A stretch of 64,000 bases of DNA from a virus (lineage: Duplodnaviria > Heunggongvirae > Uroviricota > Caudoviricetes). The stretch is from the IMG/VR virus record IMGVR_UViG_2571042690_000019; one strand, given 5' to 3'. Below the pieces are notes generated by a model. The model was not told where the DNA came from. It ran no database searches and saw nothing but the letters and a program-made list of their open reading frames with translations. Each line of letters starts with the position of its first letter. Positions within the stretch are counted from its first letter, which is position 1. Positions 23,627 through 64,000 of the stretch are shown here, piece after piece. A program made the position numbers and the translations under genes.

Positions 23627-23630
23627 TGAG

Positions 23631-24377: not shown

Positions 24378-24911
24378 ATGGGTAGCATATATTTTGCCGG
24401 TCATAACGGCATTTATCCTGCGCGCACGTCTGAGGGTAGGCATTGCGGATACTTTATTGACTGGCCTGGCGTCTGTCAGGGGCGGGAGAGCATCAGCATG
24501 AGCATCAGAACCTACGCAGTGAATTGCAATGACGCATGGCTAAACACCGAAGGTGATGACATCTCCGGCTCATACGTTAAGTACAAAGACCATCAGGAAG
24601 TGGTTGCCGCTCTTGAGGCCAGGTGCGCGGCGCTGGCAGCGGAGAATGCGGCGCTTAAACAGTCGGAGAAGGAATTTAATAACTTCTGTCGTCAGGAGTA
24701 CTACGGTTGGGAGGACAACTTCACGGAAACCCCAGCTACCGACGCTCTCCTGGCTGAAGTACGTGCGCAGGGGGTGGATATGGCTCGTAACGCGATGATT
24801 GATTTTGTTGATGGTGAAGTTGGGCCAAACAAGAACGTTCCGGGGCTGATTAGAGGCGCAGAGATATGCGTAAGTATTGCTGAACAGCTTCGCGAAGGAG
24901 GCAACCAGTGA
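24378..24911 (+). CDS. Ea22-like phage protein (N-terminus possibly supplied by frame-shifted ORF 24319..24501)
   Basis: ALAAENAALKQ and ATDALLAEVRAQGV segments; ORF 24319 begins with canonical MSKINYQELRE but is in another frame. Confidence 0.5.
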   Translation: MGSIYFAGHNGIYPARTSEGRHCGYFIDWPGVCQGRESISMSIRTYAVNCNDAWLNTEGDDISGSYVKYKDHQEVVAALEARCAALAAENAALKQSEKEFNNFCRQEYYGWEDNFTETPATDALLAEVRAQGVDMARNAMIDFVDGEVGPNKNVPGLIRGAEICVSIAEQLREGGNQ

Positions 24912-25354
24912 GCAAGATTGATTATCAAAAGCTTCGTGAAATCGCTGAAAAAACAAAAATTGCTGGTGAAGCACCTGTAATGCCTTTCGATCAGCGAATT
25001 AATGCGCTTAACGATTTTATGAAGCACTTTTCGCCAGATATCGCGCTGGCATTGTTGGATGAACGGGAAAGAAACCAGCAATACATCAAACGCCGCGACC
25101 AGGAGAACGAGGATATTGCGCTAACGGTAGGGAAGTTGCGCGTTGAGCTTGAGGCAGAAAAACAGCGGGCAAAGGATCTGTTTATGGAAAATGCTCGGCT
25201 TAAGTCAGGTATAGCCGGTCTGATACACCTCGGTATTCGATATGCAGATGTTGATGTCATGAAAATTGCTGGAGATGCCCAGCTTTCTACCCCATGCACT
25301 GACAGCATCATAAACAGCATTGCAACAGGCATTCGCATCAACGGAGGTGAGTAG
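24908..25354 (+). CDS. Ea22-like phage protein
   Basis: 148 aa; MSKIDYQKLREIAEKTK N-terminus. Confidence 0.55.
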   Translation: MSKIDYQKLREIAEKTKIAGEAPVMPFDQRINALNDFMKHFSPDIALALLDERERNQQYIKRRDQENEDIALTVGKLRVELEAEKQRAKDLFMENARLKSGIAGLIHLGIRYADVDVMKIAGDAQLSTPCTDSIINSIATGIRINGGE

Positions 25355-25526
25355 TGCGTGTGGCATGTATTGGCTTGTTACCGTACCCGACTCGTTTTTG
25401 GGCTTCTGCGCTAATTGCAAAGCCGTATGTCCTGATGGCTGACAACATCATCCCGGCACCAAAGCGCCGCCATACCGGTATTGCAGCGGCACGACGAGCA
25501 GCAAAGAGACGCAGGAGAGCAAAGCG

Positions 25527-25703
25527 ATGAAAAACCGTAAGGCAAAACGACTTTTTTTACAGCGACCTGTGCGTGTGGTGGAGCTGGTTATTAGCAACCA
25601 TAAGATAGCGGTACTCCATCCATTTGGTCAGGTGGCTTTTGCCGCAAAGCGTAAGCCTACTGCGTCACAGAACAGGCGGAAGAAAGGGTACGCTGTAAGA
25701 TGA
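25527..25703 (+). CDS. small basic protein (58 aa), paralog of next gene
   Basis: manual translation MKNRKAKRLFLQRPVRV...; stop overlaps next ATG. Confidence 0.3.
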   Translation: MKNRKAKRLFLQRPVRVVELVISNHKIAVLHPFGQVAFAAKRKPTASQNRRKKGYAVR

Positions 25704-25888
25704 AAAACCGTAAAGCAAAGATTCTGTTAGTTCGTAGAAACGCTCCTGGCGTCTGGCAGTGGGTGAGACTCAGCAACCGACGGATGGGGTTGATGAAATA
25801 TTACGGGATGATGGATTGTGGTTTTTGCAAAAAGCCCAGCGCGGCGCAAAACCGCTGGAAAAACCACTTGCGCACTAAAGGAGAGTGA
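25700..25888 (+). CDS. small basic protein (62 aa)
   Basis: MKNRKAKILLVRRNAPG...; shares first 7 residues with preceding ORF. Confidence 0.4.
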   Translation: MKNRKAKILLVRRNAPGVWQWVRLSNRRMGLMKYYGMMDCGFCKKPSAAQNRWKNHLRTKGE

Positions 25889-25889
25889 T

Positions 25890-26099
25890 ATGGCTATTGC
25901 CGCAAGTTACACAATGCATCTCTATTGTGACTGCCGCCAGTGTACGGAAGGTGTATATCCAGTGCCAGACTTCGGTGAGTATATAGGTACGTCATGGGCT
26001 GGCTGTGCAAAAGAGGCGCGCAAGGATGGCTGGCGAATAAGCAAAGACAAAACGCGTGCTTTTGCGCCCGGGCATAAAGTTTTGAGGATTAACAAATGA
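25890..26099 (+). CDS. small Cys-rich hypothetical protein
   Basis: MAIAASYTMHLYCDCRQC...; start chosen to avoid overlap with upstream ORF. Confidence 0.45.
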   Translation: MAIAASYTMHLYCDCRQCTEGVYPVPDFGEYIGTSWAGCAKEARKDGWRISKDKTRAFAPGHKVLRINK

Positions 26100-27712
26100 C
26101 CACTATTACCAGAGAACAAGCTCTGAAAATTATTGAGGCAGCCGATGAGGTTATTAGTGCGCTTGCCGGAACTAACGAGGATGTTCACCCTGGTAGCGAT
26201 AACATGCTACGCCTGTGGGATGACCTGAATGACCGTTACGCGCCGCCGGAAGTTGTGCGTGAGCTGGCACGAATTGCACTGGCATCGCTGGAAGCAGAAC
26301 CAGTTAAACGAGTTAACTCAGATCAGATGCGCCGAGTCTGCTTAGAAGCTAATCGCCATTTAGATAAATATGACGCGATGGCGAAAGAGGTAAATAAGTT
26401 GCTTGGACGCATCGCCCCGCCAGCACCGGTAGTGCCTGAAGAAGCAACTCCGGAAAACGTAGAAATGCTCTCTGGCTATGTTTCAACGTACAAATTAACC
26501 GATAGCGAGCGCGATATTGCTGCCGAAATATGGAACGCCTGCCGCGCCGCCATGCTTCAGTCCGGAAACTTTCGGGAAAACAAGAATTCGTCAACCAATA
26601 ATTTTCGGGAAATCGCGGAAACGTCAACCAGCTATCCGGCAATTCCTAGTGAGGTGTTGTCCGCAATCCTGAAGGTTGCCAGGATTCGTGCCGATTTCGA
26701 TGATTTTGACGGTGACAGGCGAGGTATCGGTGATTGTCTGGATGAGGCCGAGCAAGAGCTTATCGTTACCATTAACAAATATGCCAGTCAGTTGGCAGCA
26801 GAACCGATAGCGGCTAATGACGTTCGAGAGCAGCAGACAGCCGTTCCGCCAGTTCCAGAAATACAGGCTGATGTCGCGCAAGCAATTGAAAATCTCAAGC
26901 AGAAGTTAGTGGAATGCAATCGCTATAACTACTGCGCAGATGCAGTTAAAGGCGTAGAGGATGCCAGCCGCGTCTTGGCACTCCAAAATCAAAATATGTC
27001 AGCACCGGTAACGCCGGAGGCCATTGAAAACGCAATTGAATATATCCGCAGTATCGCTTTTCACATCGATGAAGACGATTACCACGGCAAGCATATTGCG
27101 TATTTCATGCGACAAGCATTGGCCTGGCTGGAAGGGCATTCATGCAGCGACGACAGGCTGGGTAAGGCCGACAATCAACCCGCATCTGGTAACCAGGCTG
27201 CCGAATCCAATCGCGGTAATGAGTGGACCGGCAATCCTGATATTGATAACGCCATCATCATGCTCGACCGCATAGATACGGCGGAAAGTTGCGATGATGA
27301 CCGTATTGAGGCCGTTAAGGCTGTGTTGCGTAGACTGGCAGGCAACTATCCGGATATTCCGGATAGTTCGGTGCCAGCGCCAGGAAAGGGCGTCACCGGT
27401 GAACGTATCCGCATTAAGCCGCATGTTTATCGCGAACTGGTTAACCGTCTCCACGATACAGCGATCAAGTGTGCTGGCACCCAGCAATTACGAGAAAGAA
27501 TTAGCCGTGTTTTGGGCGACGTTATTACACCAGATCATCATAAACAAGCCGAGAAAAGTGGCCTGGAAAGGTGTCGCCTTGAGGCGGCATTAAACATTAA
27601 GCCGGGGCATACGCTTGGCATTATTGATGCACTATTGGTTCATAAGATGGCCAGGGCTTTATTGCCGCTGGTGGCTGAAAAGCATGAGGTGGACCATGCC
27701 AACGAAAGCTGA
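26096..27712 (+). CDS. hypothetical phage protein, 538 aa
   Basis: long ORF; C-terminal segment HVYRELVNRLHDTAIKCAGTQQLRERIS homologous to C-terminus of ORF 17530..18153. Confidence 0.6.
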   Translation: MTTITREQALKIIEAADEVISALAGTNEDVHPGSDNMLRLWDDLNDRYAPPEVVRELARIALASLEAEPVKRVNSDQMRRVCLEANRHLDKYDAMAKEVNKLLGRIAPPAPVVPEEATPENVEMLSGYVSTYKLTDSERDIAAEIWNACRAAMLQSGNFRENKNSSTNNFREIAETSTSYPAIPSEVLSAILKVARIRADFDDFDGDRRGIGDCLDEAEQELIVTINKYASQLAAEPIAANDVREQQTAVPPVPEIQADVAQAIENLKQKLVECNRYNYCADAVKGVEDASRVLALQNQNMSAPVTPEAIENAIEYIRSIAFHIDEDDYHGKHIAYFMRQALAWLEGHSCSDDRLGKADNQPASGNQAAESNRGNEWTGNPDIDNAIIMLDRIDTAESCDDDRIEAVKAVLRRLAGNYPDIPDSSVPAPGKGVTGERIRIKPHVYRELVNRLHDTAIKCAGTQQLRERISRVLGDVITPDHHKQAEKSGLERCRLEAALNIKPGHTLGIIDALLVHKMARALLPLVAEKHEVDHANES

Positions 27713-40796: not shown

Positions 40797-40872
40797 TGGT
40801 GGCCCCTACCGGACTTGAACCGGTGACCGTGCGATTATGAGTCGCCAGCTCTAACCACTGAGCTAAGGGGCC
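40797..40872 (-). tRNA. tRNA-Ile (anticodon CAU, ileX-like) or tRNA-Met
   Basis: GGCCCCTTAGCTCAGTGGTTAGAGC...CTCATAA...GGTTCAAGTCC...GGGGCCACCA; cloverleaf folds; near-identical to E. coli ileX as recalled. Confidence 0.75.
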
Positions 40873-41857: not shown

Positions 41858-41944
41858 TGGCGGAGAGTAATGGAATCGAACCATCATCGCTTGCGCAATG
41901 GGACGGTTTTCAAGACCGTTTGAGCACCATGCTCCCTACTCTCC
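41858..41944 (-). tRNA. tRNA-like gene, possibly tRNA-Ser (anticodon UGA), non-canonical A8
   Basis: 7-bp acceptor stem, anticodon arm ACGGT-CTTGAAA-ACCGT similar to E. coli serT, long variable arm, TTCGATT T-loop, 3' CCA; D-arm atypical. Confidence 0.35.
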
Positions 41945-42561: not shown

Positions 42562-42637
42562 TGGTGCCGATTAACGGACTCGAACCGCTGACATCCTGCT
42601 TACAAGGCAGGCGCTCTACCAACTGAGCTAAACCGGC
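42562..42637 (-). tRNA. tRNA-Thr (anticodon UGU)
   Basis: GCCGGTTTAGCTCAGTTGGTAGAGC...CTTGTAA...GGTTCGAGTCC...CGGCACCA cloverleaf. Confidence 0.8.
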
Positions 42638-42639
42638 AT

Positions 42640-42715
42640 TGGCGATGGTGGATGGATTTGAACCATCGACCCGTTGATTAACAGTCAACCGCTCTAACCG
42701 CTGAGCTACACCATC
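42640..42715 (-). tRNA. tRNA-Asn (anticodon GUU)
   Basis: GATGGTGTAGCTCAGCGGTTAGAGC...CTGTTAA...GGTTCAAATCC...CACCATCGCCA cloverleaf. Confidence 0.8.
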
Positions 42716-46413: not shown

Positions 46414-46674
46414 TTAAAGGGTTATTTTATCCTGTTCGGATAATTCTTTGATTGTCTTGTCGATTGCGATCAACCAACCTTCATAGGTTAAATCATCAAC
46501 AAGTTCTACCAACTTATCATCGGTGTGAGGAAAGTATATCCAGCTCCAGTTCGCAGGGTTTTCTGCTTTTCGCAGCGTAAAAACCTTCTTGTATCGGTGG
46601 AACTCAAGGATATACCCCTTCGATATGGAATATTCCTTTAGGTCTTCGACCGTAAACCTACGATTCTTTCGCAT
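46414..46674 (-). CDS. hypothetical protein
   Basis: 86-aa ORF. Confidence 0.45.
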   Translation of the reverse strand: MRKNRRFTVEDLKEYSISKGYILEFHRYKKVFTLRKAENPANWSWIYFPHTDDKLVELVDDLTYEGWLIAIDKTIKELSEQDKITL

Positions 46675-46676: not shown

Positions 46677-47111
46677 CTACCCCATAATTCGATATTTCTC
46701 TATAGACTCGTCGTAACTTGTGTACACGTATGGCTCTGTATCATCGGCATAAGGTGCGACTTCCAGAGCATGAACAGGATTGTTTACCGCGTCATTTTCC
46801 AGGCGATCGCTCGAATACAGATGCCCAGCCAAAACCGTAAGCGCCGGGCGACTCATTTTGTAGATCTCTGCCACATCACTATCTACAACTTGTCCAAATG
46901 ATATGTCGCCGCGCTCCAGCAATAACGTTTTAAGCGCAGGCCACCACGGCCCATAAAGGTGATAAAGCTGTGGATCTCGTTTCAGCCTTTCCACCATGCC
47001 ATTCAGATATGCATCCAGAAACGCCTCTTCACTCCTGCCATTGAGCGCCTGCGGCAAAATGTCCTCAAGGTAGGATTCCGTCGGTTTTACAGTGTCAATT
47101 AATGTCGTCAT
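46677..47111 (-). CDS. hypothetical protein
   Basis: 144-aa ORF downstream of the giant gene. Confidence 0.5.
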   Translation of the reverse strand: MTTLIDTVKPTESYLEDILPQALNGRSEEAFLDAYLNGMVERLKRDPQLYHLYGPWWPALKTLLLERGDISFGQVVDSDVAEIYKMSRPALTVLAGHLYSSDRLENDAVNNPVHALEVAPYADDTEPYVYTSYDESIEKYRIMG

Positions 47112-47147: not shown

Positions 47148-50100
47148 TTAGGCCGCATCGGCGATTATTTTACGCAGTTCATCTACCGAGTAACGCGTAG
47201 ATACCATCCATGCAGGACGGTCAAAGTTCACATCAGCAACCGGGTTTGCTTCAAAATTCCAGAAACGTCCGCCAATCTTCTTAATCGCGTCTTTGGCGTT
47301 CCGTATTGTCGAGGAACCTGGTTGGTCGGCAATGAGATAAACCGCGCCAACGTCCTCGCTGACGCTCCACCAGCGCCCGCGAACACGCGCCTTAGCGCGA
47401 ATCGGCTTATCATTAACCACAATGATATAGTCATCATTCGCCGCTTCATCAGCTCTGGCTTCAGCCACTGCCGCCTGCTCTTCTCTTTTGCTTTCAGCCT
47501 GCTCAAGCCTTTCCGCGATCTCTGATTCAGTGGCCCCGCCGTTTTTCAGCGATACATAGTCCTGCCACGTTGCCGATTTGAGCGTATCCGGCAACTCATT
47601 CACATAGTCGCCGTCTTTCAACTCACGGGCGCGGCGGGTAGCCATTTCTACCAGGCGATTAACAGAAACAGCATCAGCAAAATCGTCCTTACTAATGTGT
47701 TTTTCATCAAATGCATTGATGACAGCCCCCACCTTAATCCACTGTGCTGCCGGTGATTCCAGGGGGTTATCAGCCTGAACAATGGCGAGTTTCGCTCCAT
47801 CTACCCCATTATTCGCCAGCTGTTCCAATGCCGCCCATCCATCTGCATCACTGAGTGATTTATATTGCTCAAACAATGCATCGCGCCAGGCCACCAGCGC
47901 AGAACGTGTTTTTTCGATCTTCGCCTTAATTTTCGCGATCTTGACCTGATTAAACATCCGTTCAATATCATCGATATTGCTAAAGGCTTTCATCCTGCCC
48001 TGGAATAAACGGTATGCCAGCACGGTCCTCCAGAATGATTCCAGACCTTCTCCGGACGGTTTGCGGAACAAGCTAAGAATATCTTCAGAAGTGACTTTAT
48101 TAAGCGAACGACCTGACAGACCACGCCCAGCCATCCAGTTTTCGAACTCATGGGCAACATCATCCATCGTTGCCTGTGCGCCCCATGCCTGCATTCCCTG
48201 GGTGTAATCATACCCATACAATGCCTGGAGGAATCCCTCGCCGTCCACGATATTCAGCGGGTTATCACTGGCTTGTATTTTTGCCACTTCACGCTTCAGC
48301 GCCTCGTCGTTGCCATCAGGATATATCCATCGCTCAGGTGCTATATCCGATGCTCGCCCGATTTTTTGGCCTATCACGCCATCATAGGCCGATGACAGCG
48401 CGATCTGACCATCATCTGTGCGATATGCCCAGTATTTAATAGCTGACCCACCGCCCCATGCATTACCAGGTTTACCAGCAATAACATTCATTACCCCATT
48501 GCGAATAGCATCATAGAACTGATCGCGAGTAAGTATTGTTGATAGCTGGTGGCACTGAACACCACGCGCAGCCGTTGCGCGCGATTCAGCTACCCCCTCT
48601 TCAAAAGTTACCGCTTCAATCACAGAGTCAAACGGCAATGTAACGATTGACCCCGGTGCTCGAGCGTAACGACTTGCTCTATCCAGCCAGGCGATACGGC
48701 AGAGGTATTGTGCTTTTTCACCGTCAATTTTTTCCACCCGGACAATCGCTGTTGTTTCGCGATCATCAATGACTGCACGGTAATAACTACCTTTATGCAA
48801 CAGGATATTCTTGTCAGTGCGCATATATTCCTGTGGGTTCTGAATAACATCGATACTGATATCCAGCACACCAGACTTAATAGCGCGCTCCACATCACCA
48901 CGAGAGCGTTTCATTATGGTATCCGCGTCTTTTGCCCTGGTGATCGCAAACCGCAGCACCCGCGCACGTTTTCTGTAGCTACTCAACTGCTCAAGCGCGT
49001 ATTTTTGCCCATTCCTGTTCGTACCCGCTTTTATCAGGTCGTCAAGATTGCGCTGGTAATACTCTATCTGTTCCATCGCGCTTTTCAGTTCTGTCTCCAT
49101 CATGCCGATATCTTTTCCGGCGGCGTTTGCCGCTTTCAGGTAGATATCGAGAGCATTGTTGGCCTCGCGCTGTGCTTTCAGTTTCAGACGTTCTTCACGC
49201 TCTTGCGCCTGGCGAGCCATGATTGCGCGGCGTTCTTCCGGGTTTGCCGCCAGCATAATGGCGCGTTCATCAGCATCATCCGCATCACCATTGGCGATCT
49301 CTGACATGTCGGATGTCATCACCATCTTGATCCAGTCTTTCTTACGTTTCAGCGTATCCAGACGGAAGTCGTCGAATGTGCCTTTGCCACAATAGTAGTG
49401 AACATTGACCTTTTCTTGCGGTGAACCTACGCGCGCACCGCGCCCATTTCGTTGGTCGATACTGGCTGGTGTCCAGGGTAGTGTCAGGTGGTGGATATCG
49501 GTTGTCCCGATGTGCAGGTTAATACCTACTTCAGCCTTCTTGTTACAGATTATGATGCGCGTGCGACCTTCGTTATAGTCGGCGGCAATACCTTCCATGC
49601 CCTCAAGGCCAGCATCATTTTTAGCGGAGAGATAATCCTCATATTGGGCAAGTTTGCTGTAGTAGGTTTCCCATGTCCCTTCTTTGTATTCACCGTTTTT
49701 GTTTGGAGTAGGTTCGGTCGGCTTATTCACCTTCTTCAGCTTGATGCCACCAGCCTGGCTAACTGTCGTCGCATTGATAATGCCAATCTCCTGCTCCGGC
49801 ATTTGCAGTGCACTGGCGATAATACGGCGCAGCTTCTGGTGCTGGGCTTTTTCATCAATAAAGACGATCTGCTTACCGTTCTTCAGACCTTCACGAAGAT
49901 TTTCGATCAGCGCGGCATACTTCGGCGGGATGGGGTGCGACACCTGCTGCATATCAATGCCGGCAGCCGCAATGGCCTTCAGTATTTCAGCTTCCAGTTC
50001 AATGCTGGCACGTATTTCAACATGCGTCGGATGTTCACTAAAAGCGGTCTTCACTACCTTGCTGGTACGCGTACTGACCAGCCCGCCAGCGCCGTCTTCC

Positions 50101-53100
50101 TCGGCCTCATCAACATCATCTGCCACTTTACCGCCAGCTACTTTTGGCAAGGCATCAGCAATAGCTTTTACCTGGTCTGCAAGCTCAACGGGGAACTGGA
50201 ATGTAATCGCACTGGCATACAGATCCGGGTCTATAGCAACCTTATCCATGTCACGGATGATGGAGAAGATGAAATCATCCGGTTTGTCGTTAGTGATATG
50301 CCCGTTTTCATCGACTGTCAGCTCATCATTGCGACTTAACTCCTGAGCACGCTTACGAAGCTCTTCATAAGCAGTCTCCTGCTCCCCTGTCATCGGGATC
50401 TGCAAGGTGTTCTCGATGATGTCGGGAATTTTAACCGTCGCTCCGACATCTGCAGCAGTCTTCAGAGTGGTCCAACGATGGAAAATACCACGCAGGCCGT
50501 CAAGGTTCTGGAAGCCCACCAGCCCCTGCTTCTCTTCCACTTCCCCGGAAATTTTCTGGACCTGAACTGTGGCTGTTTTGCCAAACACACGAACGAAATC
50601 ATCAGGCGTAATGATGCCCATACGCATCCACTCTTCCTGCGGAATGACAGTAGACAGCATGTTGAAGGCATCAATCGGACTGTTCACCAGCGGTGTTGCC
50701 GTCAGCATGACTACACCACGCCCGTTGTTGCGTTTCATCATGTACGCAGCTTTTACAGCCATGTCGCGGGCCATCTTGGATACTGCCGGGTTAGGCAAAT
50801 ATGCCAGTTGTCCCGCTTCACGCCCGGCATTAAAGGAGTTGCGGTAATTATGCCCCTCGTCGGCAATCACGCTATCGAAGTTCATATCCTCAAAGTACGG
50901 GATATTCTGCTTCTTCGTTGTACCGGTATTCGCGGCCTGATCCTTAATCTTGTTCTTCTTCTGCGCATCACGGTGTTTACCGGACGCCAGGTCAAGACGC
51001 CCCATTTCCACAGCATTAAAGACAGCTTGCTGTGAGTTCTCCTCGATGGTTTTTTCTCGTAGCGGGATAGACGCGAATTGTTCTTTTGTCATGATGACCG
51101 TTCGCCAATTTGACGACGGGATCATGTTCATACGCTGAACGATAACGGCGCTGGCGGACTCTTTCACAACATTTCTGGTAAGAGGCTGCCCGTTACTGTC
51201 GAGGCGTGGTTCGCCATTTTCATCAAGCACCGGCGCGGTCAGAATATTTCCGCTGTCATCACGAACTTCATCCAAACCGATAAACATCATATTGGCGAAG
51301 GCATCAGCACTGTAGAAACTCTGTGCCTCGTGATACCAGTTCTGATAAACCGCCTTCGGAACAACAATACACGTGCGTTTAGTGCGACCTGTTTCGAAGT
51401 TATACGCCTCAAGCGCAAGCGCGGTCGTGGTTTTACCCAGCCCGGTACCAAATCCCATGATGCCGCGCCCATCTTCTGACAAGCGCCGAACTTCTTCATT
51501 CTGATAAGTAAGAGGAATGCGCTTTCCACTAAGCCCTTCCAGGCCAAGCGGTGCGTCAGAATGCGTGAACGGAATGAAACCATTGAATGCGTCGTTATAC
51601 TCGCGGGCTATCTGATCAGCCTGCGGGTGAGTGCGTAACCAGTCGTTAAAACTAACTTCCAGTTGAGCAATTTTATCCAGGTACTCGTTAGCGTTCTGCC
51701 CACGCGGTTTAACACCGTTCAGGTAGTTTTCTAACTGGTTCAGGAAGCCGTCTTTATTGTTGGCCTTCTTGAACTCATTCCCGTTTTTGCCGTTTACGGT
51801 TCGTAGCTGATAGCCGGTAAATACACCGTCCTTACCTTCGTAATCGTCCGGAGATACCAGAATGCCATCGACGACCTTCAGATCAGGTTCAGTGTACTTA
51901 AACTCGTCATAGCCCTGCTCTGCCAGGAACTCTTTTATCAAGCGGCGATCCAGCCAGCGGGCATTCAGATTAACGGTGACTTTATTTAGTGGCGTGAAAA
52001 TACGTTTCTCTTCGATTTTCGCCAACTGACGCTCAAAGTTCGCTTTCTGCTCACCTGTTGACGCATCACGCCAGCCCATCAGCAATGCTGTTTTGGTTGC
52101 AATATCGCCGCTGGTGGCGCGGTCCATCGGCAGCAGGCAGCCATACCCATCAATAGCGATATCATCAAATTTCGCCAGGTATTCAAGGGCCGCGTCGTCG
52201 TCCTCTGGCAGTTCACCAGCAAACGCCTCACGAAAGTCTCCCAGCGTTATAGGATTAAGGGCTACATCACTGAAAAGATGTGCTATCACTTGTTCAGGAC
52301 GTGTAAAGTCAATACCGGCAGCACCATCCGTTACATCAAGTCGCCCTGCCAGAAGGTCAGAAGTGGAACCATCCTGTTTCACATTGCCAGTGAACGTCAT
52401 CCAGTTTTTAGCGCCAGCTTCAGCAAGCCCATTCAGCTTAATGGCGTGCGGTGGTCCATACTTCGCAACTTCTGCTGCCGCCAGGCGGGATGCATCTGCC
52501 AGTTTGTCATCAACGTTCACACCCAGGTTACGCAAATCAAGTGCCTTGTTGATCAACTGACCTATCAGCGCACCGCGCATAACGCGCTCCCTGTCTTTTT
52601 CTCGCTGCTTGCCAGCAAAGCGAATCATTGCTGCCACTTCATCACTGACAACCGATGGATAGTCGGACGCGATCGCCGATATCTGGTCCCATGACAAAGC
52701 CAGAATCCCGTTTGTTGACTGGAACGCGATCTGCAGATCGCCAAACGTCGAAACACCATATCGACTTACATCAAGCGCGGAGGATTTGGTTGTCGTGTCC
52801 TTAACCCATTTCAGACCATCAAACTCATGCCAGATACCGCCTACAAGGCGTTTATCGCCCACTTTCGCGCCCTGCCATGCCTGAGTAGTTACGCCGAGCA
52901 AATCCCAATTGATGCGACTATCAAAGCGACGAGATAGCGCGGTTTTCATCGACTCATTGGATACACGACCGTCTTTTTTCACCACCAAGGTATTGCGGAA
53001 GCTGGTACGTTCCATGTCGCCGTAAACAAATCGCTTCCCTTCGGTTGTAAACCATTTTCCTTTGAGGAAGGTATCCCAAAGGACGTTTGCCGATTTGAGT

Positions 53101-53984
53101 GTTGAATCATCCGTGTCGGGGATCATCTCCAGGAAGGTTTCCGGGTGTTTACGCAATACCCATACGTCCACCACGGTATCTGTACCGGATTCGCTGAACG
53201 TACCAGAAGGCATACGATGTGCGCCCAAAAATTCCGCTTTACGGCTGACTTTATCGCGCAATTTTTTATATTTCGCACCATCGGTCATGCCATTCGGCAC
53301 CACCAATACGATAAGCCCACCAGGTTTAACCTTGTCGATCGTGCGCAGCACAAAGTAATTGCCAACGTTCTTCTCGTTTGCATATGCCGGATCAAGCCCG
53401 GCGACACCGGAACGCCCTTCACCAAACGGTACGTTACCAACAGCGTGATCATACATTGCGTCTTTCGCCGCCAGCGCCTCAAACGCCCCGATATTCACAT
53501 CGTCTTCCGGGTGCAAAAGCTGGTTTATTCGACCGGAAATCTGAGACAGTTCGGCGCTGGTCATTATCATGCCCTGCCGTTTTGTCTCCTGGAAAATACC
53601 TGTGCCCGCTGATGGTTCCAGTACGTGCCCGCCATCAATACCGTAGTCAGCAAACAGATCCCATATACCTTCAGCCATAAACTGTGGCGTGTAGTATTCG
53701 TATTGGCTGCCCTCACCATCTGTCAGGCCGCCTTCACCGGTATACCCGGCAAGAATCTGACGTTGTTCGTCAGTTAATTTCGCCCCATCGAAGCCGGGCG
53801 GAAGGGAATTAAGAAGATTTACTGCGGCATTATTTGCTGCCCGGCGTGTTTTCTGAATACTGACGCCATCGGCTTTCCTGACGCCAAAGGTCGCAACAGC
53901 ACGTAATTTATGCAACCGACTAACAATTTCAATCAGTTCGCCTAAGCTGGAGGCTTCACTGATTGAATGAAGTAGTTTGTCCAA
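47148..53984 (-). CDS. darB: giant multidomain protein: N-terminal N6-adenine methyltransferase-like region plus SF2 DExH helicase (DarB-like antirestriction protein)
   Basis: 2278 aa; helicase motif I GFGTGLGKT and motif II ADEGHNYRN; N-terminal MTase-like NVPFGEG; size matches P1 DarB (~2255 aa). Confidence 0.7.
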   Translation of the reverse strand: MDKLLHSISEASSLGELIEIVSRLHKLRAVATFGVRKADGVSIQKTRRAANNAAVNLLNSLPPGFDGAKLTDEQRQILAGYTGEGGLTDGEGSQYEYYTPQFMAEGIWDLFADYGIDGGHVLEPSAGTGIFQETKRQGMIMTSAELSQISGRINQLLHPEDDVNIGAFEALAAKDAMYDHAVGNVPFGEGRSGVAGLDPAYANEKNVGNYFVLRTIDKVKPGGLIVLVVPNGMTDGAKYKKLRDKVSRKAEFLGAHRMPSGTFSESGTDTVVDVWVLRKHPETFLEMIPDTDDSTLKSANVLWDTFLKGKWFTTEGKRFVYGDMERTSFRNTLVVKKDGRVSNESMKTALSRRFDSRINWDLLGVTTQAWQGAKVGDKRLVGGIWHEFDGLKWVKDTTTKSSALDVSRYGVSTFGDLQIAFQSTNGILALSWDQISAIASDYPSVVSDEVAAMIRFAGKQREKDRERVMRGALIGQLINKALDLRNLGVNVDDKLADASRLAAAEVAKYGPPHAIKLNGLAEAGAKNWMTFTGNVKQDGSTSDLLAGRLDVTDGAAGIDFTRPEQVIAHLFSDVALNPITLGDFREAFAGELPEDDDAALEYLAKFDDIAIDGYGCLLPMDRATSGDIATKTALLMGWRDASTGEQKANFERQLAKIEEKRIFTPLNKVTVNLNARWLDRRLIKEFLAEQGYDEFKYTEPDLKVVDGILVSPDDYEGKDGVFTGYQLRTVNGKNGNEFKKANNKDGFLNQLENYLNGVKPRGQNANEYLDKIAQLEVSFNDWLRTHPQADQIAREYNDAFNGFIPFTHSDAPLGLEGLSGKRIPLTYQNEEVRRLSEDGRGIMGFGTGLGKTTTALALEAYNFETGRTKRTCIVVPKAVYQNWYHEAQSFYSADAFANMMFIGLDEVRDDSGNILTAPVLDENGEPRLDSNGQPLTRNVVKESASAVIVQRMNMIPSSNWRTVIMTKEQFASIPLREKTIEENSQQAVFNAVEMGRLDLASGKHRDAQKKNKIKDQAANTGTTKKQNIPYFEDMNFDSVIADEGHNYRNSFNAGREAGQLAYLPNPAVSKMARDMAVKAAYMMKRNNGRGVVMLTATPLVNSPIDAFNMLSTVIPQEEWMRMGIITPDDFVRVFGKTATVQVQKISGEVEEKQGLVGFQNLDGLRGIFHRWTTLKTAADVGATVKIPDIIENTLQIPMTGEQETAYEELRKRAQELSRNDELTVDENGHITNDKPDDFIFSIIRDMDKVAIDPDLYASAITFQFPVELADQVKAIADALPKVAGGKVADDVDEAEEDGAGGLVSTRTSKVVKTAFSEHPTHVEIRASIELEAEILKAIAAAGIDMQQVSHPIPPKYAALIENLREGLKNGKQIVFIDEKAQHQKLRRIIASALQMPEQEIGIINATTVSQAGGIKLKKVNKPTEPTPNKNGEYKEGTWETYYSKLAQYEDYLSAKNDAGLEGMEGIAADYNEGRTRIIICNKKAEVGINLHIGTTDIHHLTLPWTPASIDQRNGRGARVGSPQEKVNVHYYCGKGTFDDFRLDTLKRKKDWIKMVMTSDMSEIANGDADDADERAIMLAANPEERRAIMARQAQEREERLKLKAQREANNALDIYLKAANAAGKDIGMMETELKSAMEQIEYYQRNLDDLIKAGTNRNGQKYALEQLSSYRKRARVLRFAITRAKDADTIMKRSRGDVERAIKSGVLDISIDVIQNPQEYMRTDKNILLHKGSYYRAVIDDRETTAIVRVEKIDGEKAQYLCRIAWLDRASRYARAPGSIVTLPFDSVIEAVTFEEGVAESRATAARGVQCHQLSTILTRDQFYDAIRNGVMNVIAGKPGNAWGGGSAIKYWAYRTDDGQIALSSAYDGVIGQKIGRASDIAPERWIYPDGNDEALKREVAKIQASDNPLNIVDGEGFLQALYGYDYTQGMQAWGAQATMDDVAHEFENWMAGRGLSGRSLNKVTSEDILSLFRKPSGEGLESFWRTVLAYRLFQGRMKAFSNIDDIERMFNQVKIAKIKAKIEKTRSALVAWRDALFEQYKSLSDADGWAALEQLANNGVDGAKLAIVQADNPLESPAAQWIKVGAVINAFDEKHISKDDFADAVSVNRLVEMATRRARELKDGDYVNELPDTLKSATWQDYVSLKNGGATESEIAERLEQAESKREEQAAVAEARADEAANDDYIIVVNDKPIRAKARVRGRWWSVSEDVGAVYLIADQPGSSTIRNAKDAIKKIGGRFWNFEANPVADVNFDRPAWMVSTRYSVDELRKIIADAA

Positions 53985-54135
53985 AGGATTTCCCCCTCTA
54001 AACCGTAAAAAATTCCGCTATGCGGTACGGTTGAGAGGGTATGGAGAATGTTATTTTCAGGGGGACGATACTACCGTCAAAATCACATACTCCCCATAGT
54101 TTGCCTACTTATTAACCCATGACCGGGGGAAAAAT

Positions 54136-54621
54136 ATGGCAAACATTGAACCTCGCTGGCTAATTGAAGCCCGTAAGCACATTGGCCTGACTGAAATAAA
54201 AGGCGCTAAACACAACCCTGAAATCGTTCAGTTCTGGCGCGACATCAAGCGCGGCGGAATTAAAGACGATGAAACGCCGTGGTGCGCAGCATTTGTCGGT
54301 GCAATGCTGGAACGTGTAGGCATCCGCTCAACAAGATTTGAGTCGGCAAAATCCTATCTGGATTGGGGCGAGAAATTAGATACACCGGCATACGGATGTA
54401 TCGTTGTATTTACCCGCGTAGGCGGTGGGCACGTAGGCTTCGTTGTCGGACGCCGCGCCAATGGCGATCTGCTTGTCTTGGGTGGGAACCAGGGGGATGC
54501 GGTAAATATTCGCGCATTCCCAACATCAAGAGTGTCTGGCTATCGCTGGCCTGCTGGCGAACCACGCAATACCGCTCTGTTACCAGTCGGAGACGCAGCA
54601 ACCTCAACTAATGAGGCATGA
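54136..54621 (+). CDS. hypothetical protein, possible CHAP/NlpC-P60-like hydrolase (TIGR02594-type)
   Basis: 161 aa with conserved Cys (ETPWCAAFVG) and His (GGGHVGFVVG) spaced as in CHAP-like domains. Confidence 0.45.
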   Translation: MANIEPRWLIEARKHIGLTEIKGAKHNPEIVQFWRDIKRGGIKDDETPWCAAFVGAMLERVGIRSTRFESAKSYLDWGEKLDTPAYGCIVVFTRVGGGHVGFVVGRRANGDLLVLGGNQGDAVNIRAFPTSRVSGYRWPAGEPRNTALLPVGDAATSTNEA

Positions 54622-54650
54622 AAAAAGCCCCGGCCTGGCCGGGGCATCAC
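54621..54650. terminator. terminator hairpin (GCCCCGG-CCTGG-CCGGGGC) with A-run upstream, T-run on minus strand
   Basis: ends the minus-strand antirepressor operon. Confidence 0.55.
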
Positions 54651-60053: not shown

Positions 60054-60117
60054 GAATCACCGCAAATTGTTTCCAGTTTTGCGGCAGCATAATCAGTATG
60101 TGATTTCAGCGGTTGGT

Positions 60118-61515
60118 TTAGTTTTCCATACTGCAATTATTTAGAACTGTAGAATTTTCAAACATAGCAAAGTTCAGACCTTTCCCTTCGCCAAATTCAC
60201 CCTCAATTTCATCAGATACAGCAGACAAAATACGACGCAGATCAACATCGCCACCGCCGAACATATCGCCCAATGCCTGTTGTTTATGAGTCAGCTCGTC
60301 GTTGATTTTTTGCGCCATTTTTTTGAATGCGGCCCCCATACGCTTCGCACTGCGATTATTTGCTACGATGAATAGCGCCAATGCCTCAGCTTCCGGTGTA
60401 CTGTCGCCGAATAACCCCCTTTGGGCGATCACTTCTTCAACGGCCTGACCGTTGTCTTTGGCTTCACGTACAAGATTAATTGCTTCCTGGAGTGCTGCTA
60501 TCGCCTGTGTATCCAGGCCATTAACCTGCTCTATACCGTCCACTAAGCCTGTTACTGCGTCATGGTGAGCGTCGCCAGACAGCGACTGCATTTGCGCAAA
60601 ATCGCTGGCTGCCGTATTTAATGCGGTCAGGATATTACGCATTTCCGGATCTGGCTCTTCCGACACCAGCCGAACAAGCCTTTCATCCTTGTACGCTTTG
60701 GCAAAAATTGCATTCTGGATGCGATCGATAAGCTGTTTCGTGGGACGCCCATCGGCAGTAAGCAAGCCTGCCGTCGCTGTATCGCCAATTTCGCGCAAAA
60801 AAGCACGAATAAACGCATCATTGGACCGCGCCAGCAGATTTCCATCATCTGAAGGATTAAATAGCGCCATGACGCTCTCAGTGAGAAATTGCGCATCCGC
60901 ATACGCTTTTTCACTTGCTGCCATCTCTTGCAGATCGCTAATGTTTGAATCGCGGGCAAATTGAGCGCGGTCTACATCTGTGAGTCTTTCTCGCACCAGT
61001 ACGGGCATAGACATTTGCGAAATTTCGTCAGGATTCAGACCAAACTCTTTCGCATGGTCGATCAGGTACTGACGATACTCATCCGCCTGTCCTTGCTCAT
61101 AGGCACGCCAGATACCCATACTCCTTCCGTTGCCGGATTCAACAACGTTGTCCGGACCAACTATCGGCGCTCCGTGGCTGCTCATACCGGAATCCGTTAA
61201 TTGTGCCGGGCGTAAATTAGAGGCAATACGGTTAACCTGGAGTTTGCTGGATAACCGGGTACGATCTCGTGGTTGGAGTTCTTCCGGGAAGGCCGGGTTA
61301 ATCGTACCGTCAAGGTTGTTCGAAATGATCAGACTGCTGGCATCAACGACCTTAAAAGCCGTCTTTACCTCTGCACCTTTGCTGGTGACTACGTAGCTAC
61401 TTCGCCCCAGGCGTGTTTCTTTCCTCTCTAATGAAGAAACCAGAGCAATGACGCTGTTAATATCTGTGGCCCCGGAAAGCGCAGAAGTAACTGATTTGTT
61501 CAAAATACACTCCAA
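60118..61515 (-). CDS. hypothetical phage protein
   Basis: 465-aa ORF. Confidence 0.55.
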   Translation of the reverse strand: MECILNKSVTSALSGATDINSVIALVSSLERKETRLGRSSYVVTSKGAEVKTAFKVVDASSLIISNNLDGTINPAFPEELQPRDRTRLSSKLQVNRIASNLRPAQLTDSGMSSHGAPIVGPDNVVESGNGRSMGIWRAYEQGQADEYRQYLIDHAKEFGLNPDEISQMSMPVLVRERLTDVDRAQFARDSNISDLQEMAASEKAYADAQFLTESVMALFNPSDDGNLLARSNDAFIRAFLREIGDTATAGLLTADGRPTKQLIDRIQNAIFAKAYKDERLVRLVSEEPDPEMRNILTALNTAASDFAQMQSLSGDAHHDAVTGLVDGIEQVNGLDTQAIAALQEAINLVREAKDNGQAVEEVIAQRGLFGDSTPEAEALALFIVANNRSAKRMGAAFKKMAQKINDELTHKQQALGDMFGGGDVDLRRILSAVSDEIEGEFGEGKGLNFAMFENSTVLNNCSMEN

Positions 61516-61597: not shown

Positions 61598-61966
61598 TTA
61601 CCCGGCATAACCGTTAGCTTTCACCCAGCTTATGGTCTGCTCTTTAGCCTGCTCCAACGTAAGGAACTCGCCAACATAGTTTGAGATCCCACGCAGCGCA
61701 TCAATAAATTCCATTTGTGTGGACTTTGTGAAGACACCGCCCAGGAAGTCAGTCACTATCTTAGGGGCTTCATCTACAACAGGATCAGTCTGTTGTTGCG
61801 GTTCCGCTGCCGGTTGCGCGGCAGTCCCCAGGCCCAATTTCAGCATCACATCAACAATCTGCTTACCAATGGTGACGCGTTGCAATACTGGCGCAGTTTT
61901 CTGCGCCTGCATTAGATCTGATAGCTCTTTACCTAATTTCAGGCGGTCTAAAACAGAGATGGTCAT
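61598..61966 (-). CDS. hypothetical protein
   Basis: 122-aa ORF coupled to upstream gene. Confidence 0.5.
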   Translation of the reverse strand: MTISVLDRLKLGKELSDLMQAQKTAPVLQRVTIGKQIVDVMLKLGLGTAAQPAAEPQQQTDPVVDEAPKIVTDFLGGVFTKSTQMEFIDALRGISNYVGEFLTLEQAKEQTISWVKANGYAG

Positions 61967-63891
61967 TAAGCACCTCCCTGCTGAATTTCAGCCAGAATGT
62001 TGATCAGGTAGTCAACTGCTGCACCAACAGTGGCTTCGTTCTCGTCGTATCGACCTGCACTGATTAGAGCGTTTGCTGCTTCCTGCACATGATCAAGTTC
62101 AGCACTGATGACCGTCAGATCGCGGGATGTAAACTGCTCCGGCACGGATTTCAGGTACTCCAGTGCTTTATCTGCCTCCTGATCAGCTTCACTTGCTGAT
62201 TCACCCGTTTCTTCTGGCTCCTGTTCTGGTGCTGGTTGTGGTTGTGATTCTGGCTCAACCATATGCTCTGTTTTTACTTCGCTTGAATGATTTTGAAGGG
62301 CGTTATACACGTCCATAATGAAAAGGTTCTCCCCATCACTAAGTGGATACGCCACGTTTGGAAACGCTTTGCGGAAAAGAATTTTCACTTGCGCCTTGAA
62401 TGTTTTCAGGTCACTGCCAAACAGGTCCACATAGCCATCAATATGTTTCGACATGCTGGACGCAACCAATTGGTCTGCAAAATCTTTCAGCTCATCTTCA
62501 TCAGGAAGATAGAGCAACTCGTACTGGCTGACTTCTTCATCTGTCAGTTTACGGTCATACGTAATGATACCGTGACGAGCATATTCGTAATACTGATCAG
62601 CCTGGTCAGGACGATCAAGCACGGCTTTATTTCCATCCGGAACAGCACCAACACCAGCCGGGCGAGATTGAAGTGCATAGTGGTATTTACCTACATCTTG
62701 GCTCTCTGGTTGTAATACTGGGTTCGTTTCGGGGTCTGTCTGTGGTAGTTCGGAGTCTTCCAGCTGGCCTGGTAACACATCAACTTTATATTTATCTGCG
62801 TTATGCTCTCGGTAGGCTTTAAGTAATTTGGTTGCAGCATCTGCCAAACTGCCTCCTTTGACAGCACTGGCATCAATACTGAATTTACCTTCAGGTGCTA
62901 CTATCGTAACGAAATTATCACTGCCGGACGTGACATAATTAACTTCAGCGCCATTATCCAGCACTGTTTTTCCGTCAATGGCAAGATTATGTTTTACATG
63001 TCGCAGCTGGTCACTAAACGCTCGTTCTTTCGTTTTTTCACCTTTAGCAGACAACAATTTATCGCGTTTTGCTTGTAATTCCTCGTTGATGGCTTTCTGG
63101 GAATCAAGTTTTTTTTGCATCTCCGTAAGAGCAGCACGCTTTTCAGTCAGCCCACGTTGCGCAACTTCCACCTGATCAATCATTATTGACCGTTCTTCTG
63201 CCAGTTTATCTGCTTCATTGAGATAACTCTCAATATCTGCCTTCATTTTGTCCTGGCGCTCTTTTGCTTTCTTAAATTTTTCGCTGTTACGCTCAATCAA
63301 ATTAGATAGCGCCTGGCATACCTGGCTTAAAGAAACATCTCTCCCACCAATCGGGGCGACAACGTGAGTTACGTTACGCTTATTAAGTAAAAACTGAAAT
63401 GCAACAAGCTCGTCGTTACTCTTTATTTTTGCCCCGTCAGCTGTTGGAGAGTGGAAAATTATGCTTGTAGTCTGCCCGTCAGTAAGCGGTATCTGCGCGG
63501 TCAAAACAGGGATATTAGCTACCCGACGTACACGACCGATAATCGCACCACCAATACAATTACGTCCATTTTCATCGGTCCCAGCTTCATCAGTCCCTGC
63601 CATAATATTCGTACCATTCAGGCCACGATTCAGCGCACGGACGAAAGCTCGCATTGTTTGAGCTAACCGAATTCTGGTTGTAGTTATGGACTCAAACATA
63701 GCTTCGTCAGACACAACCAGAATTTCATTGCCCATATAGGCAAGCTCAATATCTTCTAAGGTCGCCGCCTCAAAAATCAGGTCATCTTCGCTTAATTCTT
63801 CTGAAGACCAGCGACTTGGCATATAGCCGGGGATCGTATCAGCAAAAGTAGACTGAATATTAATTCGTAAAGGATTGTTAATCATGCTCAT
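61966..63891 (-). CDS. hypothetical phage protein (size compatible with DarA-like internal head protein)
   Basis: start moved to ATG with GGAGG RBS (MSMINNPLR); long coiled-coil centre, acidic C-terminus. Confidence 0.55.
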   Translation of the reverse strand: MSMINNPLRINIQSTFADTIPGYMPSRWSSEELSEDDLIFEAATLEDIELAYMGNEILVVSDEAMFESITTTRIRLAQTMRAFVRALNRGLNGTNIMAGTDEAGTDENGRNCIGGAIIGRVRRVANIPVLTAQIPLTDGQTTSIIFHSPTADGAKIKSNDELVAFQFLLNKRNVTHVVAPIGGRDVSLSQVCQALSNLIERNSEKFKKAKERQDKMKADIESYLNEADKLAEERSIMIDQVEVAQRGLTEKRAALTEMQKKLDSQKAINEELQAKRDKLLSAKGEKTKERAFSDQLRHVKHNLAIDGKTVLDNGAEVNYVTSGSDNFVTIVAPEGKFSIDASAVKGGSLADAATKLLKAYREHNADKYKVDVLPGQLEDSELPQTDPETNPVLQPESQDVGKYHYALQSRPAGVGAVPDGNKAVLDRPDQADQYYEYARHGIITYDRKLTDEEVSQYELLYLPDEDELKDFADQLVASSMSKHIDGYVDLFGSDLKTFKAQVKILFRKAFPNVAYPLSDGENLFIMDVYNALQNHSSEVKTEHMVEPESQPQPAPEQEPEETGESASEADQEADKALEYLKSVPEQFTSRDLTVISAELDHVQEAANALISAGRYDENEATVGAAVDYLINILAEIQQGGA

Positions 63892-64000
63892 CCTCCAGGC
63901 GCGCGATTTCTTCTTTAAGAGCACGTGTCTTAGCTACTTCCTGAGACAAGGCAGCTTTAACATTACCCGTATCTTGCATTACTTTGTCTGACTTGCTCTG
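63881..64000 (-). CDS. 3' end of an upstream gene (partial, continues beyond window)
   Basis: open frame from window edge ending ...KEEIARLEDEHD; stop overlaps next start. Confidence 0.35.

What the first reader, a model, noticed from the sequence alone, without database searches (positions are those of the whole stretch)
47148..53984. 2278-codon methyltransferase-helicase gene (DarB-like)
A single ORF of 6.8 kb encodes SF2 helicase motifs (GLGKT, DEGH) and an N-terminal MTase-like region, matching the description of P1 DarB, a virion protein that protects phage DNA from type I restriction. Its intactness suggests the element encodes active antirestriction functions.
Basis: partly seen in the sequence, partly recalled or inferred. 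Interest (0 to 1): 0.4.

Follow-up and report, generated by a model that had tools for sequence, protein, structure and literature searches.

The report
DarB antirestriction gene of D6-like phage-plasmid

Summary
The ORF is real: 47148..53984 on the minus strand, 2278 codons, TTG start behind a GAGGGGG ribosome-binding site. Its DNA is 99.4% identical (protein 14 of 2278 residues different) to orf15 of Escherichia phage D6, which GenBank already annotates as "defense against restriction, similar to P1 darB". More than 110 PLSDB plasmids of about 90 kb carry the same gene.

It aligns end to end with P1 DarB (40% identity, E = 0). It has the family's N-terminal GxGG motif, gamma-class N6-adenine methyltransferase motifs (YYTP, EPSAGTG, NVPF) and SNF2-type helicase motifs (GLGKT, DEGH, TATP, QRNGRGAR). 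All are conserved across the aligned homologues.

Ulx follows 36 nt downstream. DarA, DdrA and a short DdrB lie 6-10 kb upstream. dN/dS is 0.04-0.12.

How DarB works is unresolved even in P1. I infer that the packaged enzyme acts in cis on the injected DNA.

The only mildly new observation concerns the C-terminal third (residues about 1600-2278). It is much more divergent and is mosaic between close relatives. It occurs only in DarB proteins and has no solved structural relative.

The parts
47148..53984 (-). darB homologue, complete CDS (2278 aa, TTG start, TAA stop)
   Evidence: ORF. 99.4% nt identity to D6 orf15, annotated 'similar to P1 gene darB'. 40% aa identity to P1 DarB over the full length. 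phrog_1685 matched end to end; phrog_10089 is 'DarB-like antirestriction'.
53700..53984 (-). Residues 1-95: N-terminal helices (position of the P1 capsid-targeting signal, residues 1-30) and LPD36-like region with GxGG motif (G83-E-G85-G86)
   Evidence: Ungapped alignment with the P1 N-terminus, 8 of 30 identical. Y81, G83, G85 and G86 are invariant in 19 homologues. LPD36 and its GXGU motif are described in PMC5512222. The P1 packaging signal is described in PMC9024508.
53085..53699 (-). Residues 96-300: gamma-class N6-adenine DNA methyltransferase domain (YYTP97, EPSAGTG123, NVPF184)
   Evidence: Motif positions. E123, P124, G129, F131, N184, P186 and F187 are invariant in the 19- and 82-sequence alignments; G183 and G188 are invariant among 19 and in at least 90% of 82. 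Pfam N6_Mtase. The AF2 model (pLDDT 86) matches HsdM of type I enzymes, M.TaqI, M.BseCI and CamA, Foldseek E 1e-8 to 1e-5.
51585..53084 (-). Residues 301-800: conserved linker/accessory region of unknown role between methyltransferase and helicase
   Evidence: 25-43% identity to P1 DarB per 100-residue block. Confidently modelled mixed alpha/beta. No Pfam family.
49305..51527 (-). Residues 820-1560: SNF2-type SF2 ATPase/translocase (Q828, GLGKT848, DEGH1042, TATP1095, QRNGRGAR1511) with long inserts
   Evidence: Pfam SNF2-rel_dom 2.8e-12, ResIII, Helicase_C. Motif residues are conserved across homologues: invariant among 19, at least 90% among 82. This is the most conserved part against P1, 45-69% in the core blocks.
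47151..49184 (-). Residues 1601-2278: divergent, mosaic C-terminal third (long coiled-coil hairpins, small Tudor/SH3-like barrel, helical domain, conserved terminal alpha/beta domain of about 100 aa)
46677..47111 (-). ulx homologue (144 aa), 36 nt downstream of darB with its own AAGGAG
   Evidence: 46% identity to P1 Ulx, E 1e-43. phrog_1629 'Ulx-like anti-restriction'. Intergenic sequence.
60118..61515 (-). ddrB homologue, short form (at most 465 aa; start uncertain)
   Evidence: 64% identity to residues 2-442 of the 995-aa P1 DdrB. Pfam ddrB-ParB 2.6e-42.
61598..61966 (-). ddrA homologue (122 aa)
   Evidence: 32% identity to P1 DdrA, E 4e-21.
61966..63924 (-). darA homologue (at most 652 aa; start uncertain)
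   Evidence: 39% identity to P1 DarA, E 4e-141. Pfam DarA_N and DarA_C.
63878..64000 (-). 3' end of hdf homologue, cut off by the window end
   Evidence: Placed only by collinearity with D6 orf28. Too short to confirm against P1 Hdf.
54053..54080 (-). Candidate sigma-70 promoter for darB-ulx (TTGACG-16-GAAAAT), weak
   Evidence: Consensus scan, 9 of 12 matches. The number of such sites in the region is no higher than in shuffles. It lies downstream of the hairpin terminator at 54627-54645 that closes the upstream operon.

Best explanation
The gene is the DarB orthologue of a D6-like, P1-related phage-plasmid. By homology with P1, the 2278-aa protein is made during lytic growth. It is loaded into the prohead through its N-terminal signal, with help from DarA/Hdf, DdrB and Ulx, at tens of copies per head. 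It is then ejected with the DNA and protects that same DNA molecule, in cis, from type I (EcoK/EcoB-class) restriction before any phage gene is expressed.

Mechanism, inferred and not shown: the SNF2-type motor uses ATP to track along the entering duplex while the fused HsdM/TaqI-like N6-adenine methyltransferase acts on it. Type I enzymes would then either meet already-modified adenines or be blocked or displaced before they can translocate and cut.

Identity and family membership: about 0.95. Virion delivery and cis antirestriction in this element: about 0.8. The translocation-coupled methylation step: about 0.4. The overall confidence of 0.8 refers to identity plus virion-delivered cis antirestriction, not to the methylation step.
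For: Shown here:
- Intact 2278-codon ORF.
- 99.4% nt and 99.3% aa identity to D6 orf15, annotated as the darB homologue.
- End-to-end homology to P1 DarB.
- Ulx directly downstream.
- DarA, DdrA and DdrB in the window.
- Methyltransferase and helicase catalytic motifs conserved across homologues of 36-96% identity: invariant in the 19-sequence alignment, at least 90% in the 82-sequence alignments.
- dN/dS of 0.04-0.12 along the whole gene.
- The modelled N-terminal fold matches HsdM, M.TaqI and M.BseCI.
- The window carries 6 EcoKI, 12 EcoBI and 3 EcoAI target sites, so it needs protection.

From the literature on P1:
- DarB is in the head at about 40-45 copies, and its N-terminal 30 residues suffice for packaging (PMC9024508; PMC12810830).
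- Dar acts only in cis on DNA from the same virion (PMC12707154).
- darB deletion sensitises P1 to EcoB and EcoK (PMC11109961).
- The methyltransferase-SNF2 dyad and the translocation-coupled methylation model were proposed in PMC5512222.
Against: - I found no experiment on D6-type DarB.
- The N-terminal 30 residues are only 8/30 identical to the P1 packaging signal.
- DdrB here is half the length of P1 DdrB.
- No P1-type late-promoter box lies upstream of darB.
- Methylation by DarB has never been shown, and reviews call the mechanism undefined.
- Protection in P1 is limited to some type I families. That fits a specific interaction at least as well as broad methylation.
Confidence: 0.8

Rival explanations
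1. Same protein and same delivery, but protection is physical. DarB coats the entering DNA, or acts as a moving roadblock or stripper that stops type I enzymes from binding or translocating. The methyltransferase fold would serve only for DNA or adenine binding, or as an HsdM-like decoy that engages type I subunits.
For: The occlusion hypothesis and cis-only action are in the literature (PMC12707154). The closest structural relatives of the methyltransferase domain are the HsdM subunits of the very enzymes being countered. Protection in P1 is restricted to particular type I families. About 40 copies per genome looks few for global methylation but workable for site-blocking.
Against: SAM-binding motif I and the catalytic N-x-P-F are invariant in the 19- and 82-sequence alignments, and dN/dS is about 0.1. 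That is hard to explain if catalysis were dispensable.
Confidence: 0.3
2. The antirestriction effect is a property of the DNA, not the protein. Chi-rich darB DNA that carries type I sites triggers ClpXP-dependent restriction alleviation in the host.
For: Plasmid-borne P1 darB fragments alleviated EcoKI restriction even with premature stop codons, and the effect depended on Chi and EcoKI sites (PMC11109961). This darB carries 6 Chi sites.
Against: Chi is enriched across the whole window (44 against 1.9 expected), not in darB specifically. This darB has no EcoKI or EcoBI site. The effect acts in trans from a resident plasmid, whereas Dar acts in cis from the virion. A 2278-codon ORF under purifying selection is not explained by a DNA-level role.
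Confidence: 0.04
3. A generic SNF2-related helicase/methylase of a defence or restriction-modification system (DISARM DrmD-like, type ISP-like) that protects the lysogen. This is what the RefSeq name 'SNF2-related protein' might suggest.
For: Partial hits to DrmD, DpdE, ZorD and BrxHII models over helicase motifs. Foldseek also lists the type ISP enzyme LlaBIII.
Against: The scores are far below the curated cut-offs, for example DrmD 44.5 bits against 610, and cover only about 50-200 residues. Pfam finds no nuclease domain. Full-length homology and gene order are those of the P1 Dar system.
Confidence: 0.02
4. An inactive relic: the ORF is retained but no longer functional.
For: None beyond the absence of direct experiments. 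DdrB is shortened relative to P1.
Against: The ORF is intact. 27 of the 41 differences from D6 are synonymous. dN/dS is 0.04-0.12 against more distant alleles. All catalytic motifs are intact. The short DdrB is shared with phage D6, whose record names E. coli C600 as host.
Confidence: 0.02

Closest known systems
Escherichia phage D6 orf15 (ASR76325.1, MF356679.1 12283..19119), annotated 'defense against restriction; similar to P1 gene darB'
   Same: Same gene: same length, same TTG start, 41 nt and 14 aa differences, same neighbours (CHAP-domain orf16 upstream, ulx and orf13 downstream).
   Different: The window is not D6 itself. It is a mosaic relative, 87-98.6% identical in blocks with several gaps. 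The best plasmid match is E. coli p702_18_3 at 99.8%.
Phage P1 DarB (AAQ13985.1, 2255 aa), the archetype of the Dar antirestriction system
   Same: Collinear full-length homology (40%). Identical domain order: N-terminal signal/LPD36, gamma-class N6-adenine methyltransferase, SNF2 ATPase, C-terminal region. ulx is directly downstream, and the darA operon is in the same genome.
   Different: Residues 1601-2278 are only 13-24% identical. The N-terminal packaging signal is 8/30 identical. The local gene order differs: P1 darB abuts prt-pro, whereas here a CHAP-domain gene, ant/icd and the repL replicon lie between. The partner DdrB is half-length. Function has been tested only for P1.
DarB-like methyltransferase-SNF2 'polyvalent proteins' of other phages and conjugative elements (Bcep22-like and PEp14-like podophages, Thermus phage Lalka27a; Iyer et al. 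2017)
   Same: Share the LPD36-methyltransferase-SNF2 dyad at 25-34% identity over those domains.
   Different: Those proteins are up to 3,700-4,600 aa and carry extra effector domains. They lack the P1/D6-type C-terminal third, which is confined to DarB of P1/D6-like elements.
Type I restriction-modification HsdM subunits (EcoKI M, 2ar0/2y7c; Vibrio vulnificus 3ufb/7eew) and M.TaqI
   Same: The methyltransferase core fold and motifs: an N-terminal helix with a TP cap, motif I, and an NPPY/F-type motif IV.
   Different: No HsdS partner or recognisable target-recognition domain. Fused to an SNF2 motor. Sequence identity is only 13-20%. It counters rather than serves restriction.

Membership tests
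P1 DarB family (Dar antirestriction; methyltransferase-SNF2 dyad) | Collinear, full-length sequence homology to P1 DarB | tested here: met
   BLASTP 1521 bits, E = 0, 40% identity over 2372 columns from residue 1. tblastn 43.5% over residues 1-1935. PHROG 'DarB-like antirestriction' and P1-type methyltransferase phrogs.
P1 DarB family (Dar antirestriction; methyltransferase-SNF2 dyad) | N-terminal LPD36 domain with GXG(G/A/S) motif | tested here: met
   G83-E-G85-G86 with Y81 is invariant in 19 homologues. The motif definition is taken from PMC5512222. No LPD36 profile was available to score.
P1 DarB family (Dar antirestriction; methyltransferase-SNF2 dyad) | Gamma-class N6-adenine methyltransferase with TP cap, motif I and N-P-P-(Y/F)-type motif IV intact | tested here: met
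   YYTP97, EPSAGTG123 and NVPF184 are present and conserved. Pfam N6_Mtase is just above its cut-off. The fold matches HsdM, TaqI and BseCI.
P1 DarB family (Dar antirestriction; methyltransferase-SNF2 dyad) | SWI2/SNF2-type SF2 ATPase C-terminal to the methyltransferase, with catalytic motifs intact | tested here: met
   Pfam SNF2-rel_dom, ResIII and Helicase_C. GLGKT848, DEGH1042, TATP1095 and QRNGRGAR1511 are conserved.
P1 DarB family (Dar antirestriction; methyltransferase-SNF2 dyad) | Genomic context: P1-like phage with ulx immediately downstream and hdf-darA-ddrA-ddrB elsewhere in the genome | tested here: met
   Ulx 46% identity, 36 nt downstream. DarA 39%, DdrA 32%, DdrB 64% over the N-terminal half. 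hdf is only partly inside the window. The window is collinear with phage D6.
P1 DarB family (Dar antirestriction; methyltransferase-SNF2 dyad) | N-terminal capsid-targeting sequence (first 30 residues in P1) | tested here: inconclusive
   Same length and no gaps, but only 8/30 identical, and P1 residues 6-10 (MGVFR) are HSISE here. Two helices are predicted at modest pLDDT of 63-70. No consensus signal is defined even in P1.
P1 DarB family (Dar antirestriction; methyltransferase-SNF2 dyad) | Incorporation into the virion head and ejection with the DNA | not testable with these tools
   Known for P1 only (PMC9024508).
P1 DarB family (Dar antirestriction; methyltransferase-SNF2 dyad) | Cis protection against EcoK/EcoB-type type I restriction | not testable with these tools
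   Known for P1 only. The window does contain EcoKI, EcoBI and EcoAI target sites.
Defence-system SNF2 helicases / single-chain restriction-modification enzymes (DISARM DrmD, DpdE, ZorD, type ISP) | Whole-protein score above the curated family cut-off, and presence of a nuclease or system partner genes | tested here: not met
   DrmD 44.5 bits against a cut-off of 610. DpdE 31.5 against 500. The hits cover only helicase motifs. No nuclease domain in Pfam. The neighbours are phage Dar and morphogenesis genes.

The most novel reading that the evidence does not exclude
The C-terminal third (residues about 1600-2278) may be an exchangeable specificity module. It is confined to DarB of P1/D6-like phage-plasmids and has no solved structural relative. 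It evolves about twice as fast at non-synonymous sites and is shuffled by recombination between otherwise near-identical alleles. It could determine which host restriction or defence complexes (type I families, possibly BREX) a given DarB neutralises, so D6-type and P1-type DarB would have different antirestriction spectra.
Probability: 0.2. Interest if true: 0.45.

Novelty: already known. Interest (0 to 1): 0.12.

Why it matters
It matters little as a discovery. The gene, its homology to P1 darB and its place in the D6 genome are already in GenBank (MF356679) and are attributed to the 2018 D6 genome paper, which I could not open. The same gene sits on more than a hundred sequenced plasmids.

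It has some practical relevance. D6-like phage-plasmids are common in E. coli and Salmonella, and an intact Dar system should help them cross strain barriers set by type I restriction. RefSeq calls the gene only 'SNF2-related protein', which hides this. How DarB works is still an open question, and the conserved catalytic motifs and divergent C-terminal module documented here point to the mutants and domain swaps worth making.

Tried and rejected
- **P1-type late promoter.** I searched for the box derived from LPdar, LPlyz and LPpro (AAGTKAYTW-N4-TANNNT) upstream of darB. There is none within the intergenic region, and only 3 matches window-wide against 1.7 expected. Late expression therefore could not be supported from sequence.
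- **Sigma-70 scan.** It gives one weak site at 54053-54080, but the number of such sites is no higher than in shuffles.
- **Sequence search of the PDB.** Only marginal INO80 and HsdM hits.
- **Diversifying selection on the C-terminal third.** Rejected: dN/dS is 0.12, with raised dS, which indicates recombination with a more distant allele under purifying selection.
- **The 86-aa ORF after ulx as the P1 Lxc homologue.** Rejected: no alignment.
- **The Hdf fragment at the window end.** It could not be matched to P1 Hdf.
- **Papers not held.** Piya et al. 2017 (PMC6011833) and Gilcrease & Casjens 2018 (PMC5800970) were not in the library. Their content is cited only through papers that quote them.
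- **Rfam.** No RNA family within darB.


Full report
**Observation.** The window contains a single ORF at 47148..53984 on the minus strand, 2278 codons, starting at TTG. The translation has no internal stop. With three stops in 64 codons, an open frame this long has a chance probability of about 3e-48 (my arithmetic). The TTG is preceded by GAGGGGG at a suitable distance. Residue 1 aligns with Met1 of P1 DarB, MDKL against MNKL, and the GenBank record of phage D6 uses the same start. The next in-frame Met is near residue 103, which would remove conserved sequence. The methyltransferase motifs EPSAGTG at 123 and NVPF at 184 are also present.

**What element this is.** The gene's DNA is 99.4% identical over 100% of its length to Escherichia phage D6. 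There it is orf15, annotated 'defense against restriction; similar to P1 gene darB'. It differs from the D6 gene at 41 nucleotides and 14 amino acids.

The whole window is collinear with D6 but is not D6. Blocks are 87-98.6% identical, with several replaced or missing segments, and the D6 rox site corresponds to window position 34714. In PLSDB, 113 plasmids carry at least 80% of the gene. They are almost all non-mobilizable, about 90 kb, and from E. coli and Salmonella. The best match is E. coli p702_18_3 at 99.8%. 93 of 5426 complete E. coli genomes carry it, nearly always on a plasmid. RefSeq names it only 'SNF2-related protein'. D6-like plasmid prophages are a recognised group (PMC6799933).

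**Test of the DarB interpretation.** BLASTP against P1 DarB (2255 aa) gives 1521 bits, E = 0, 40% identity across 2372 columns beginning at residue 1. The gene 36 nt downstream, with its own AAGGAG, is a Ulx homologue at 46% identity. The rest of the Dar system lies 6-10 kb away on the same strand:

| Gene | Window coordinates | Match to P1 |
|---|---|---|
| DdrB | 60118..61515 | 64%, but only to the first 442 of P1's 995 residues; Pfam ddrB-ParB |
| DdrA | 61598..61966 | 32% |
| DarA | 61966..63924 | 39%; Pfam DarA_N and DarA_C |
| hdf | 3' end only | cut off at the window edge |

**Anatomy.**
- *Pfam.* SNF2-rel_dom, ResIII and Helicase_C, plus an N6_Mtase hit just above threshold.
- *Conserved residues.* In alignments of 19 and 82 homologues spanning 36-96% identity, the following are conserved (invariant in the 19-sequence alignment; invariant or at least 90% in the 82-sequence alignments): the LPD36-type GxGG motif (G83, G85, G86), the YYTP cap, motif I (E123, P124, G129, F131), motif IV (N184, P186, F187), helicase Q828, G848/G850/K851, D1042/E1043/H1045, A1096/T1097/P1098 and Q1511-R1518. 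This matches the published description of the DarB-type methyltransferase-SNF2 dyad (PMC5512222).
- *N-terminal model.* An AlphaFold model of residues 1-800 (pLDDT 86) matches type I HsdM subunits, M.TaqI, M.BseCI, CamA and BsaXI, with Foldseek E of 1e-8 to 1e-5.
- *Not a defence-system helicase.* Models for DrmD, DpdE and ZorD match only short helicase stretches, far below their cut-offs.
- *No solved DarB structure.* A sequence search of the PDB found none.

**The C-terminal third.**
- Identity to P1 DarB is 37-69% per 100-residue block up to residue 1600, and 13-24% after it.
- Among close relatives the region is mosaic. One allele (P0002) is 98-100% identical through residue 1600 but 58-88% identical beyond. 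Another (P0001) has a local replacement around residues 1701-1800.
- Against plasmid pF801-4, dN/dS is 0.065 (dS 0.24) for residues 2-1600 and 0.122 (dS 0.46) for 1601-2278. The region is less constrained and recombinant, but still under purifying selection.
- Its model is confident (pLDDT 89). It shows long coiled-coil hairpins, a small beta barrel, a helical domain and a conserved terminal alpha/beta domain.
- A full HMMER scan of 1.84 billion representative proteins finds 27 hits. Each is a DarB-length protein, a mid-length protein (916-1648 aa) or a short fragment.
- I therefore assign no function to this region.

**How it most likely works.**
- *Shown for P1.* DarB is a head protein at about 40-45 copies. 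Its first 30 residues suffice for packaging, and loading depends on Hdf/DarA and then DdrA, DdrB and Ulx (PMC9024508, PMC12810830). Dar protects only DNA from the same virion (PMC12707154). darB deletion sensitises P1 to EcoB and EcoK. The mechanism is explicitly called undefined.
- *Shown here.* Both enzymatic cores are conserved and under purifying selection. The element itself carries EcoKI (6), EcoBI (12) and EcoAI (3) target sites.
- *Inferred.* The protein is packaged and co-injected. Its SNF2 motor tracks along the entering duplex while the HsdM-like methyltransferase modifies or occupies target adenines, pre-empting type I enzymes.
- *Main rival.* Physical shielding or a decoy role for the HsdM-like domain. 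It fits the cis-only action and the family-specific protection seen in P1, but explains the invariant catalytic motifs less well.
- *Minor rival.* A DNA-level effect through Chi-triggered restriction alleviation. It does not explain a conserved 2278-codon ORF, and this darB has no EcoKI or EcoBI site.

**Expression.** A strong hairpin terminator at 54627-54645 closes the upstream operon, so darB-ulx must start within 53985-54626. Only a weak sigma-70-like site (54053-54080) is found, and no P1-type late-promoter box. This point is unresolved.

**Verdict.** The gene is already known: it is annotated in D6, homologous to P1 darB, and widespread on plasmids. Interest is low. The only mildly new point is the mosaic, family-restricted C-terminal third, which could be a specificity module. 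That reading is speculative.

Noticed in passing
whole window; within darB at 47367, 47891, 48545, 49747, 50516, 52110: Chi (GCTGGTGG) occurs 44 times in 64 kb against 1.9 expected from shuffles. Six copies lie in darB. P1 is known to be Chi-rich, so the trait is shared by this D6-like element (PMC11109961).
   Followed up: partly
window 1-64000 versus D6 (for example gaps at 2793-4235, 13127-14150, 18565-20136, 23628-26845, 60106-60158): The window is a mosaic relative of phage D6, not D6 itself. Blocks are 87-98.6% identical and are separated by replaced or missing segments. The D6 orf23/orf24 region (D6 25241-26352) is absent between prt and ddrB.
   Followed up: partly
60118..61515 (-): The DdrB homologue is at most 465 aa and matches only residues 2-442 of the 995-aa P1 DdrB (64% identity; ddrB-ParB domain). 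The C-terminal half, annotated in P1 as a possible metallopeptidase, is missing, as it is in D6.
   Followed up: partly
47151..49184 (-), DarB residues 1601-2278: The C-terminal third is mosaic between near-identical alleles: 100% identity upstream against 58-88% here. Its dS is raised, and it occurs only in DarB-family proteins.
   Followed up: yes
40797-40872, 41858-41944, 42562-42637, 42640-42715: There are four tRNA genes (Met, Ser-UGA, Thr, Asn). ARAGORN places all four on the minus strand, and Rfam confirms this for three (Met, Thr, Asn). The D6 GenBank record annotates three tRNAs (Ser, Thr, Asn) at the same positions on the plus strand and lacks the tRNA-Met, so the strand in that record is probably wrong.
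   Followed up: partly
54136..54621 (+) and 54627-54645: A CHAP-domain (peptidoglycan hydrolase-like) gene is divergent from darB, followed by a perfect 8-bp GC hairpin terminator. In P1, darB instead abuts prt-pro. Here the ant/icd genes and the repL lytic replicon lie between darB and pro/prt.
   Followed up: no
DarB homologues P0001-P0120: The precomputed Pfam annotations of the homologues list PF28555 and, in some, PF28554. The local Pfam copy did not report either for the window protein, so what these families cover could not be checked.
   Followed up: no
46414..46674 (-): The 86-aa ORF after ulx (D6 orf13, phrog_6844, unknown function) occupies the position of P1 lxc but shows no similarity to Lxc.
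   Followed up: partly
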